From assembly GCF_058153355.1 (NCBI RefSeq), contig NZ_CM177019.1: a stretch of DNA of 64,000 bases; one strand, 5' to 3'. Positions 1 through 3,000 of the stretch are shown piece after piece. Numbering within the stretch: the first letter of the stretch is position 1; each line of letters opens with the position of its first letter. The position numbers are program-made.

Positions 1-3000
1 GCCGAGAAATTACAACTCAGCAAAGAGGATGTCTTTAATATACTGTCTTCATTCAACGATAAAACTTCCCAAAACCCCTCGGGTTTATTTAAGGTCATGT
101 CACATGGGAAGGTAAATATGCTGAAGTTCATGCTGGATAATCTCTGCGCGCTACCGGAGGAGGTATTTACCAAAGAGGATATTCTGGGTTTCCTGGCTGT
201 AAAAAATGCGAATGGCATGACGGGGATGGCGCATGCTATGTCTTATGGTCATGTGGAAATAGTGAAGGCCATGCTGGACCGTCTTTGCTCGATGAAGGGG
301 GAGTTTAATATTACCAAAGACTATGTCCTCAATAATATACTGGCTTCAAAAAACGGCAACGGCTGGACAGGGATATCTTTAGCCATAGCGCACGGACATG
401 TGGAAATACTGAAGACCATACTTGACGCGCTCCCCATGCTGAATGATAAGTTTGACATTACCGGCGCGGATATACAAAAGTTTCTGTTTGCAAAAATCGA
501 CGAAGACATCTCGGGTTGGACCAAAGGTATGGACAGAGGGAATAAGGACAAACTGATAAGCATGTACAAAATGCTGTTCGATAACATACTGATGGATAAT
601 AAGTCAGATATTCCTGTTGATTTGCTGAGGGAATTAAATATTGTCAGCCATATTGTATTGACAGAAACTGGAAAACCAAAAACAGACGAAATAGCAAGGC
701 AGTCTGAAACCAGCCTCACCTACGGACAACTCCGGCAATGGAGTGATCTGAGTGTACGGCGGGCGGCCAGGAGTTTAGAGGATTACTGTCGGAACCTAAA
801 CATTAATGTGGACACTGTCAAACCCTACCTGACCCCAGACGGGCTTACTCCCCTCGGCGAAGAGATGCGGGATAATGTAAAAGTGCCGGGGCTCACTGTT
901 GTGGGGTAAGGCCCTGCACATCCCGTGGCCCCCTGCATGGCTAAAGCATGGAAAGCGGAAGAAAAAGCGCAATGAGGTCGTAGGACGAACGGTTCGGGGA
1001 AGGCTGAAGAGTACGTATCTGGTCCTGAAGACCGGATAAACCTTCATCGGTCCAACGTTTAAGCCACTTGTAGCCAGTGGCAGGAGAAATGCCGTAGTGA
1101 CGGACCCTGTAAATAATTCTGTGTAACTGCCCACGATTAAAGGTGGCCGCTCAGGCGGTCACCGTATTCGATAATAAATTGTGTGATTCATAGACATCGT
1201 TTCAATTTTCTCAGCTCAAGTTCAAGCTGGTTATTCTGTTCCTGTATATGCTCCTCATTGGGCTGATAGTTTGCGTGAACGGCATCAGAGTATGGCGTTT
1301 TCTTAGCAAGTTCAAAGTAGCGCGCCATCGGAGTTATCAGCCACCCACAGCTGGTCAGGATGTTCTGCCACGAACTGACGATTCACACAGTCGCCTGCGG
1401 CAACGACTTTCCTGCTGACTGTAAACAGAACGACGGTCGGCGGTGAAATAACGGTCTTTGCCCTCACCTACGCCATGGCCCAGCGCCCGGCTCATGTCGT
1501 ACATCACGTTAGTAGCCATCGCTTTCACGCAGGCATCCATTGCGGCGTCGTTCAAAACCATACCTCCCCAGCCGCAAATACCGGGTAACCTGATACTTCA
1601 CAATAAGATTGGTGCGTGGATGATAGATTGCCAAATAATAATCCATAAAGAAATAATGACAACAAAAAACATCAAGCATTACTAATGTTATTTGGCCATA
1701 TAAAACATTAATAACTCTTGACCTTTCCTGACATTTTCCATATTCGCAATCATATTCTGTTTAGACGGTGTTTATAAACATCATGCATAATGAAATCGTC
1801 ATGTTATTTGGCGATATAAAAAAGTCTTTGAAAATACTCTCTACAACAAGTGCAGTTATAAGCTTGTTGTGACTGAGCGTCCTTGTGATTTAAAGATATT
1901 ATCGTTCTTCATCAGATGTAATAACTCAGGAAATTATATTTTCAGGGTGACAGGCTAATCAAGAATGATTCTTTTTTATAAGCAATAACAGAATGACTGA
2001 ATTGTTATATTTCTTTATTCAGCTGCTTAAATATAAACTTTGGAGAATTATGAAACTCAAACATGTCGGAATGATTGTCGTATCTGTGTTGGCGATGTCT
2101 TCGGCTGCAGTTAACGCTGCCGAAGGTGATGAGTCAGTTACTACCACCGTTAATGGCGGTGTTATTCATTTTAAAGGCGAAGTGGTAAATGCCGCTTGTG
2201 CGATTGACTCAGAATCAATGAACCAAACGGTTGAGCTGGGTCAGGTCCGTTCTTCTCGCCTGGCTAAAGCGGGTGACCTCAGTAGCGCTGTAGGCTTCAA
2301 TATCAAGCTGAATGATTGTGATACCAATGTTTCCAGTAATGCGGCTGTTGCATTCCTTGGGACTACTGTCACCAGTAATGACGATACGTTGGCGCTTCAG
2401 AGTTCAGCGGCAGGCTCTGCCCAGAATGTCGGTATCCAAATTTTGGACCGTACGGGGGAGGTATTAATACTGGATGGGGCAACTTTTAGCGCTAAAACTG
2501 ACTTGATTGATGGCACGAATATACTGCCATTCCAGGCTCGTTATATTGCCCTCGGGCAGTCAGTGGCGGGTACTGCAAATGCAGATGCGACCTTCAAAGT
2601 CCAATACCTATAATTGAGTATTCGGGTGGCTATGCGTCATCTGAAATTAAAACAGGGTGTGTGTGGCATGGCTACTCACACCCGAAAAAATTCATCAATA
2701 TTTATCTCATTATTACTAAGGAATGACTTATATTTTGGAACGATATGAAAAAATCATAGAGTATCTAAACGATTAATAAACAAGACAGTTAAATTTACTG
2801 TGATTTTAAAAATCACTTTGAAGACAATTTTTATTTCAATAGAGAACCAAATTTTATTACCAGCGCATTAAGTCTGGAAACCCGGCCATCCGCCATAGCA
2901 TTAGCAATATTTACCATTTTCTGATGTGACGGTTTCCCCCGCTTAGCCTATCAACACATGGAGAACACATCAGATGCAGACGACTCGTACGCCCTACTCT

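What the first reader, a model, noticed from the sequence alone, without database searches (positions are those of the whole stretch)
1685..1821. 21-bp direct repeats in the AT-rich region upstream of the fimbrial major subunit gene
ATGTTATTTGGC(C/G)ATATAAAA occurs twice (1685-1705 and 1801-1821), about 115 bp apart and ~230 bp upstream of the pilin start. Duplicated motifs in fimbrial promoters often serve as regulator binding sites or Dam/Lrp-type phase-variation elements. No GATC sites or recombinase genes were confirmed here.
Basis: seen in the sequence. Interest (0 to 1): 0.3.

Follow-up and report, generated by a model that had tools for sequence, protein, structure and literature searches.

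The report
Repeat flanking the F9 fimbrial promoter
The two 21-bp repeats are real and bracket the already-mapped promoter of the E. coli F9 (Fml/yde) fimbrial operon at the spots where H-NS silencer sites were predicted, but their near-identity is peculiar to a rare allele and looks ordinary.

Summary
ATGTTATTTGGC(C/G)ATATAAAA occurs at 1685-1705 and 1801-1821 (20/21 identical, 116 bp apart, 0.01 matches expected by chance).

The operon is the E. coli F9/Fml (yde) fimbrial operon. Its promoter was mapped in strain CFT073 (PMC3966885). Transferred to the window, -35 is 1762-1767, -10 is 1786-1791 and the transcription start is G1798. R2 therefore lies at +4..+24 and R1 at -113..-93. These are the positions where that paper predicted H-NS motifs (-111, -103, +8, +14).

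- The repeat is really about 45 bp long, with a 7-bp indel.
- A third, inverted partial copy lies at 1624-1638.
- Near-identity exists only in a rare promoter allele: 18 of 5,426 E. coli genomes and three metagenome contigs.
- In the common allele the two sites match 13-16 of 21, which is chance level.
- R1 is one of the most variable parts of the promoter.
- 9-12 paired positions are identical only in the rare allele and none only in the common one, which points to local sequence homogenisation.

I found no GATC sites, no recombinase gene and no inverted variants, so neither a Dam/Lrp switch nor a fim-type switch is supported. The most likely role is a pair of AT-rich H-NS contact sites flanking the promoter (about 0.4). 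A neutral copy scar is nearly as likely. Interest is low.

The parts
1685..1705 (+). R1, the upstream copy of the 21-bp repeat, at -113..-93 relative to the inferred transcription start
   Evidence: It covers the positions of the predicted H-NS motifs -111 and -103 of CFT073. It is polymorphic within the rare allele (C12T in 4 of 10 sequences) and 8 of its 21 columns vary across alleles.
1801..1821 (+). R2, the downstream copy, at +4..+24 (start of the 5' untranslated region)
   Evidence: It covers the predicted H-NS motifs +8 and +14. It is invariant in all 10 rare-allele sequences examined.
1668..1679 (+). Block A, upstream extension of the R1 copy (AACATCAAGCAT)
   Evidence: It matches 1777-1788 at 11/12. 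The gapped alignment of -131..-92 against -22..+24 scores 49, with a shuffle maximum of 32.
1777..1788 (+). Block A, upstream extension of the R2 copy (AACATCATGCAT); overlaps the first three bases of the -10 hexamer
1624..1638 (-). R0, a third, inverted partial copy (TTATTTGGCAATCTA on the minus strand), at -174..-160
   Evidence: 13/15 identical; 1 of 2000 shuffles. It lies in about 70 bp of DNA found only in the rare allele. Its spacing shifts by 1-2 bp, and the copy is degraded in one contig.
1762..1767 (+). -35 hexamer TAGACG (TAGTCG in CFT073)
   Evidence: Consensus scan and the mapped CFT073 promoter.
1786..1791 (+). -10 hexamer CATAAT, 18-bp spacer
   Evidence: The block -14..+12 is identical in all alleles examined.
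1798..1798 (+). Inferred transcription start (G)
   Evidence: 5' RACE in CFT073 placed the start at a G 251 nt before the ATG. The orthologous G is 251 nt before the ATG in strain S4 and 252 nt in the window.
1798..2049 (+). 5' untranslated region of the operon (252 nt)
   Evidence: It folds no better than shuffles (z = -0.43) and has no Rfam match.
2050..2613 (+). Major subunit gene (fmlA / F9 major subunit; annotated 'fimA' in RefSeq)
   Evidence: Pfam Fimbrial family, E = 5.8e-31.
1597..1666 (.). Segment unique to the rare allele; homology with the common f9 promoter begins at about 1664-1667 (about -135)

Best explanation
R1 and R2 are two A+T-rich segments that bracket the sigma-70 promoter of the F9/Fml fimbrial operon. 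R1 is centred near -103. R2 lies at +4..+24, directly after the transcription start. The most likely role is as contact or nucleation sites for the nucleoid protein H-NS. H-NS would bind on both sides of the promoter, 116 bp apart (about 11 helical turns, so on the same face), and then bridge the two sites or spread between them. That would hold the operon silent at 37 C.

What is shown, and only for the CFT073 orthologue: the transcription start, derepression in an hns mutant, and H-NS binding to a 251-bp promoter fragment.

What is shown here: the repeats coincide with the motifs predicted in that work, and their spacing is constant in all alleles examined.

What is inferred: that H-NS contacts these exact bases and that it bridges them.

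The near-perfect identity of the two copies is a separate matter. It is specific to a rare allele. It most likely arose by a local templated copy or homogenisation of about 45 bp (R2 side to R1 side), and nothing shows that the identity itself is selected.
For: - Locus identity: 85-89% DNA identity to the common E. coli f9 region, with ydeP downstream and hipA upstream.
- The published promoter features are recovered by the consensus scan at 1762-1791.
- The published H-NS motif positions -111, -103, +8 and +14 fall inside the orthologous R1 and R2.
- A simple consensus count independently gives matches of at least 7/10 at +8 and +14 in the window.
- The region is 70% A+T.
- Core-to-core spacing is 116 bp in all 14 sequences examined.
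- Every upstream rearrangement seen keeps the DNA from about -135 onward, which includes R1.
- On homogenisation: 33 of 37 paired positions are identical in the rare allele against 21-24 in the common one. Between 9 and 12 pairs are identical only in the rare allele, and none only in the common one.
Against: - H-NS consensus matches in this region are no more frequent than in composition-matched shuffles (11 observed against a mean of 17), so the motif predictions have little specificity.
- R1 in the window has no match of 7/10 or better.
- The EMSA was done at fragment level and its primers are not given, so binding to R1 or R2 specifically was never shown.
- R1 is among the most variable promoter segments (8 of 21 columns) and is polymorphic within the rare allele.
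- The common allele, in which H-NS control was actually demonstrated, has no significant repeat. A repeat is therefore not needed for silencing.
- A later study saw no thermoregulation of F9 in CFT073.
Confidence: 0.4

Rival explanations
1. Neutral scar. The repeat has no regulatory role as a repeat. A templated event (replication template switch or short-patch conversion) copied about 45 bp around the -10/+1 region onto a weakly similar upstream stretch in the ancestor of the rare allele. R2 is conserved only because it belongs to the core promoter and initial transcribed region, and R1 is now drifting.
For: - Near-identity is confined to 18 of 5,426 genomes plus 3 metagenome contigs.
- The common allele is at chance level.
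- The paired-position counts are strongly asymmetric, 9-12 against 0.
- Within the rare allele R2 is invariant, while the R1 side carries three polymorphisms.
- R1 has the highest variability in the promoter.
- There is no homology outside the unit.
Against: - The 7-bp indel and three retained R1-type bases mean a single simple conversion tract does not fit.
- The common-allele similarity (runs of about 5 bp or less) is too low to support ordinary homologous conversion.
- The third, inverted copy R0 in unrelated DNA is unexpected under pure neutrality.
- There is no outgroup to polarise the changes.
Confidence: 0.35
2. Operator sites for a sequence-specific regulator other than H-NS. One candidate is an AraC-type activator or anti-silencer of the kind encoded just upstream in other f9 arrangements (yneL). 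Another is a regulator carried by the island that replaces that region. It would bind R0, R1 and R2.
For: - Three copies of TTATTTGGC-N-AT-N-TA lie within 200 bp, spaced 64 and 116 bp apart, which is close to whole numbers of helical turns.
- An AraC-family HTH pseudogene lies immediately upstream in common alleles.
- Wurpel et al. note three different putative regulators in this variable 5' region.
Against: - The motif is not conserved across alleles.
- yneL is a pseudogene in the genomes examined and is absent from the window.
- No intact regulator gene lies next to the promoter in the window or in WL297.
- The published work found no link between those regulators and f9.
- The GAD-box resemblance (shared TGTTATTT) failed: 9-10 of 20, and only the gadB box is found.
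- R0 spacing varies by 1-2 bp.
Confidence: 0.12
3. A phase-variation element. Candidates are a Pap-like Dam/Lrp methylation switch, a fim-like invertible promoter (R0 inverted relative to R2, flanking the promoter), or a deletion switch by slippage between the direct repeats.
For: - The repeat spacing (116 bp) resembles the roughly 100-bp spacing of the pap GATC sites (my own knowledge).
- R0 and R2 are inverted copies that enclose -35, -10 and +1.
Against: - There is no GATC between 746 and 3000.
- There are no papI/papB-like or recombinase genes in the window's first 9 kb, nor in 24 kb upstream and 25 kb downstream in WL297.
- All 18 genomes and 3 metagenome contigs with this allele are collinear, with no inversion and no 116-bp deletion.
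- The promoter query matched a median of one place per genome (highest 2), so a fimS-like second match was not apparent; the few two-place records were not inspected.
Confidence: 0.04
4. An RNA-level role for R2. The first 24 nt of the 5' UTR would pair with a distal UTR segment to control mRNA stability or translation, with R1 irrelevant.
For: - In the minimum-free-energy fold, +1..+27 pairs with +174..+200.
- R2 is transcribed.
Against: - The UTR fold is no more stable than shuffles (z = -0.43).
- The consensus fold of 10 alleles does not keep that pairing, and only 1 of 65 pairs covaries.
- There is no Rfam match.
- It does not explain R1.
Confidence: 0.05

Closest known systems
The f9 (c1931-c1936) promoter of uropathogenic E. 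coli CFT073 (Wurpel et al. 2014, PMC3966885)
   Same: It is the orthologous promoter. It has the same -10 (CATAAT), an 18-bp spacer, and a start G 251-252 nt before the ATG. The block -14..+12 is identical. The predicted H-NS motifs at -111, -103, +8 and +14 fall on the same bases as R1 and R2.
   Different: The window carries a rare allele that is about 85% identical. In it the two sites are 20/21 identical rather than 13-16/21, the -35 is TAGACG, and the DNA upstream of about -135 is replaced. The repeat as such was not described in that paper.
H-NS silencing through sites upstream and downstream of a promoter (E. coli proU and bgl; Shigella virF). From my own knowledge, not tested here.
   Same: A+T-rich sites lie on both sides of the transcription start. 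The orthologue shows temperature-dependent, hns-dependent expression.
   Different: There is no footprint for f9. The temperature direction is the opposite of virF (F9 is on at 20 C). The sites here are only 116 bp apart.
Pap-type Dam/Lrp phase-variation region
   Same: It is a fimbrial promoter region with two similar elements about 100 bp apart.
   Different: It has no GATC, no papI/papB, and no divergent regulatory gene.
The fimS invertible promoter of type 1 fimbriae
   Same: F9 is a close paralogue of type 1 fimbriae. The promoter lies between short repeats, one of which (R0) is inverted. The TTTGGCCA core in R1 loosely recalls the fimS repeat TTGGGGCCA (my own recollection).
   Different: R1 and R2 are direct repeats. 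There is no recombinase gene, no inverted variants in 21 sequences, and the promoter query matched a median of one place per genome (highest 2), so a fimS-like second match was not apparent.

Membership tests
E. coli F9/Fml (yde) fimbrial operon promoter | Synteny: major subunit, chaperone, usher, ydeS, ydeR and ydeQ, followed by ydeP, with hipBA upstream | tested here: met
   Gene order in the window and in the near-identical WL297 region. hipA is still upstream in WL297, but 24 kb away.
E. coli F9/Fml (yde) fimbrial operon promoter | Sequence homology to the mapped CFT073-type promoter, including the -10 and the start site | tested here: met
   It is 84-86% identical over -135..+252 to about 4,885 genomes. 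The block -14..+12 is invariant. The distance from start to ATG is 251-252 nt.
H-NS-silenced promoter with flanking nucleation sites | A+T-rich DNA with H-NS-consensus-like motifs on both sides of the transcription start | tested here: inconclusive
   The region is 70% A+T. Published predictions at -111, -103, +8 and +14 coincide with R1 and R2. My own count finds matches of at least 7/10 at +8 and +14 but none in R1, and the density of matches is not above shuffles.
H-NS-silenced promoter with flanking nucleation sites | H-NS binds the DNA, and expression rises in an hns mutant | not testable with these tools
   This was shown for the CFT073 orthologue at fragment level only, and the EMSA primers are not listed. 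It was never tested for this allele.
Pap-like Dam/Lrp phase-variation switch | Two GATC sites about 100 bp apart inside the repeated elements | tested here: not met
   The only GATC in 1-3000 is at 745.
Pap-like Dam/Lrp phase-variation switch | Adjacent papI/papB-type regulatory genes | tested here: not met
   Upstream there are only an ankyrin-repeat gene and pseudogene scraps.
fim-like invertible promoter element | Inverted repeats flanking the promoter | tested here: inconclusive
   R1 and R2 are direct repeats. A 13/15 inverted copy, R0, lies at -174..-160.
fim-like invertible promoter element | A tyrosine recombinase gene nearby, and both orientations present among genomes | tested here: not met
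   No recombinase is annotated within 24 kb upstream or 25 kb downstream in WL297. All 18 genomes and 3 metagenome contigs are collinear.

The most novel reading that the evidence does not exclude
In a rare f9 allele, a roughly 45-bp unit holding the -10 region, the start site and the first 24 transcribed bases was copied to -131..-92, with a partial inverted copy at -174..-160. This would create a set of matched, helically phased sites that change how H-NS, or an unknown regulator, loops and silences the promoter. It would be an allele-specific rewiring of F9 expression by concerted evolution of cis-regulatory sites.
Probability: 0.1. Interest if true: 0.35.

Novelty: new member of a known kind. 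Interest (0 to 1): 0.17.

Why it matters
F9/Fml fimbriae contribute to biofilm formation and to colonisation of the bovine gut, plants and the chronically infected bladder. Their control is known only in outline: H-NS repression and a possible temperature effect. Showing that the repeats are the published putative H-NS sites places the finding inside an already described promoter. The allele comparison shows that a repeat is not required for that regulation. At most, the rare allele offers a natural variant for testing whether matched flanking sites strengthen H-NS silencing. In the window's own strain the question is moot, because an IS66-family element splits the usher gene.

Tried and rejected
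- **Dam/Lrp switch:** rejected because there is no GATC.
- **fim-like inversion or repeat-mediated deletion:** no recombinase, and all 21 rare-allele sequences are collinear.
- **Tandem 116-bp duplication:** there is no residual similarity outside the roughly 45-bp unit.
- **Duplicated promoter at R1:** the aligned '-10' (CATTAC / TACTAA) lacks the critical final T, and the scan finds no promoter there with matching geometry.
- **GadE 'GAD box'** (shared TGTTATTT, and the gad genes are in the window): only the gadB box at 25578-25597 matches. By my own count from the sequence, R1 and R2 match it at 9-10 of 20.
- **RNA element in the 5' UTR:** fold z = -0.43, no Rfam hit, and no covariation for pairing that involves R2.
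- **Outgroup to polarise the changes:** the genome scan with FmlA found no alignable promoter outside E. coli. Citrobacter sp. JGM124 has 76% FmlA identity but an unrelated upstream region. The literature says f9 is unique to E. coli and Shigella.
- **Metagenome scan with the motif:** it gave three more rare-allele contigs, three unrelated single chance hits and no intermediate alleles.
- **Literature searches:** those for H-NS ChIP data or other regulators at ydeT/yneL gave nothing usable. One search was wasted on the ambiguous term 'fmlA'.
- **EMSA fragment boundaries:** they could not be recovered from Table S1.

Full report
**1. Observation.** A search allowing three mismatches finds only these two in 64 kb, against 0.01 expected from dinucleotide shuffles. 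In the 70% A+T promoter region the best 21-mer pair in 60 dinucleotide shuffles reached at most 17/21, against 20/21 observed. Spacing is 116 bp, and R2 ends 228 bp before the pilin ATG at 2050. The only GATC in the first 3 kb is at 745.

Two things were missed:
- The similarity continues upstream. AACATCAAGCAT (1668-1679) matches AACATCATGCAT (1777-1788), separated from the 21-mer by 5 bases in one copy and 12 in the other. The unit is therefore about 40-46 bp. The gapped score is 49 against a shuffle maximum of 32.
- An inverted partial copy, here called R0, lies at 1624-1638. It reads TTATTTGGCAATCTA on the minus strand and matches 13 of 15. One of 2000 shuffles does as well.

Nothing outside the unit is repeated, so this is not a tandem 116-bp duplication.

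**2. What the locus is.** The operon (major subunit 2050-2613, chaperone, usher, three minor subunits, then ydeP) is the E. coli F9/Fml (yde) fimbrial operon. Its promoter was mapped in strain CFT073 by 5' RACE. The start is a G 251 nt before the ATG, the -10 is CATAAT, and the -35 is TAGTCG with an 18-bp spacer. F9 is derepressed in an hns mutant, and H-NS shifts a 251-bp promoter fragment. Six H-NS motifs were predicted in silico at -111, -103, +8, +14, +57 and +89 (PMC3966885).

In strain S4, which carries the common allele, the orthologous G is exactly 251 nt from the ATG. In the window it is G1798, 252 nt from the ATG. The consensus scan independently reports TAGACG-18-CATAAT at 1762-1791.

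R2 is therefore +4..+24 and R1 is -113..-93. The 10-mers at the published positions are the two halves of each repeat: -111 TGTTTATAGCC and -103 GCCATATAAAC; +8 TATTTAGCGAC and +14 GCGACATAAAA.

**3. Conservation.** The promoter region is present in 4,903 of 5,426 complete E. coli genomes. It falls into two discrete classes:
- The window's type occurs in 18 genomes, at 95-99% identity.
- The common type is at most 86.6% identical, and no full-length intermediates appear.

A motif scan of metagenomes added three more contigs of the window's type and no intermediates.

R1 and R2 are 19-20/21 identical in all ten rare-type sequences. In common-type sequences they are only 13-16/21 identical, which is what shuffles give (mean 15, maximum 17). 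With gaps, the extended similarity is undetectable in K-12 and XDL types and marginal in S4 and O169 types (p about 0.004-0.014). Core-to-core spacing is 116 bp in every sequence.

Across twelve aligned sequences, 8 of 21 columns vary in R1. Only the flank next to the rearrangement junction is more variable. In R2, 3 of 21 columns vary, which is about background. The block -14..+12 is invariant. Within the rare class R2 never varies, whereas the R1 side carries C12T (4 of 10 sequences) and two block-A changes. R0 is kept in most rare-type sequences, but it shifts by 1-2 bp and is degraded in one contig.

**4. Origin of the identity.** Of 37 paired positions, 33 are identical in the rare allele and 21-24 in the common one. 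Between 9 and 12 pairs are identical only in the rare allele, and none only in the common allele. Allele differences on both the R1 and R2 sides all resolve toward identity in the rare allele. One example is position 10, which is G/G in the rare allele and A/A in the common one.

With equal branch lengths, this asymmetry is unlikely under simple decay of an old duplication (about 2^-10 by a sign test, which is my inference). It points to homogenisation in the rare lineage, most simply a templated copy from the R2 side to the R1 side. Three of the four remaining mismatches keep the common-type R1 base, and the 7-bp indel persists, so the event was patchy.

No outgroup exists. The genome-wide protein scan found no alignable promoter outside E. 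coli, and the literature reports that f9 is unique to E. coli and Shigella.

**5. Mechanism.** The best-supported reading is that R1 and R2 are A+T-rich H-NS contact sites on either side of the promoter. They sit on the same helical face (116 / 10.5 = 11.05 turns). H-NS would bridge the two sites or spread between them.

Shown for the orthologue: the transcription start, hns-dependent repression, and fragment-level binding.

Shown here: the coincidence with the predicted motifs, the constant spacing, and retention of the DNA from about -135 in every upstream rearrangement type.

Inferred: contact at these exact bases, and bridging.

Weaknesses:
- Consensus matches are no denser than in shuffles, and R1 has none at 7/10 or better.
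- The EMSA fragment cannot be located.
- The common allele, in which regulation was demonstrated, lacks a significant repeat.
- A 2025 study saw no thermoregulation of F9.

I therefore give the H-NS reading 0.4 and the neutral-scar reading 0.35. A specific regulator gets 0.12. The three phased copies and the AraC-type pseudogene yneL upstream in common alleles favour it. Against it are the lack of conservation and the absence of an intact regulator gene.

**6. Rejected readings.**
- A Pap-like Dam/Lrp switch fails on GATC and on papI/papB.
- A fim-like invertible element fails on repeat orientation (R1 and R2 are direct), on the absence of a recombinase, and on variants. All 21 sequences are collinear, and the promoter query matched a median of one place per genome (highest 2), so a fimS-like second match was not apparent.
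- An RNA role for R2 lacks energetic or covariation support.
- A GAD-box resemblance was checked and dismissed.

**7. Context of this window.** Homology with the common promoter starts at about 1664-1667. Upstream lie a roughly 70-bp unique segment, an alpha/beta-hydrolase fragment, an IS481 transposase fragment and an ankyrin-repeat gene. In WL297 this island, together with two tandem filamentous prophages, separates f9 from hipA by 24 kb.

The usher gene in the window is split by an IS66-family element at 3979-6447, with an 8-bp target duplication GAATTTAT. No complete E. coli genome has an insertion at this site. The operon is therefore probably non-functional in this strain. The window's yddA-yddB genes are at best 98.8% identical to any complete E. 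coli genome, so the source lineage is not in that collection.

**8. Verdict.** This is a real repeat in a known, already characterised promoter. It coincides with published putative H-NS sites. Its near-perfection is an allele-specific curiosity, best explained by local homogenisation. Novelty and interest are both low.

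Noticed in passing
window 3979-6447: An IS66-family element (orfA, tnpB and a 523-aa transposase; about 96.6% identical to ISCro1-like copies) is inserted in the F9 usher gene, with an 8-bp target duplication GAATTTAT. No complete E. coli genome in the collection has an insertion at this site, so the operon is probably inactive in this strain.
   Followed up: yes
window 1624-1638: A third, inverted partial copy of the repeat core (13/15 identical; 1 of 2000 shuffles) lies in 70 bp of DNA unique to the rare allele. It overlaps a predicted leftward promoter (TTGTCA-16-TATTAT, 1662 to 1635). Its origin is unexplained.
   Followed up: partly
window 1842-1871: A conserved 10-bp-stem hairpin in the 5' UTR (+45..+74, TACAACAAGT-N10-GCTTGTTGTG) is kept in both promoter allele classes. 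Its function is unknown.
   Followed up: no
window 1-1666; L072 1-24000: The DNA upstream of f9 is not the usual hipBA-yneL region. It holds an ankyrin-repeat gene plus scraps of an HTH gene, an IS481 transposase and an alpha/beta hydrolase. In WL297 the same island also carries two tandem copies of a filamentous (inovirus-like) prophage between hipA and f9.
   Followed up: partly
L003 3001-3210 (K-12 type); L013 1501-1570: Deleted f9 operons keep the promoter. K-12 retains about -135..+75 fused to the truncated usher gene ydeT. Strain NCCP 13717 retains only the DNA down to about -64, including R1, fused to the 3' end of ydeQ.
   Followed up: partly
L014 1900-3061: A contig labelled as a Candidatus Nanosynbacter MAG is clearly E. 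coli DNA (contamination). Its FmlA is 99% identical to the window's protein, but its promoter is the common type, which implies recombination between the promoter and the gene.
   Followed up: no
window 25578-25597: An exact 20/20 match to the sequence I recalled as the GAD box (TTAGGATTTTGTTATTTAAA) lies just upstream of the ORF at 25608-27077 that I take to be gadB by synteny with WL297. The window contains the ydeP-ydeO-gadBC acid-resistance region.
   Followed up: yes
window 18381-22476: yddA-yddB are at most 98.8% identical to any of 5,426 complete E. coli genomes. The f9 region is 98.9-99.0% identical to its nearest matches. The source is therefore an Escherichia/Shigella lineage that is not represented in that collection.
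   Followed up: partly
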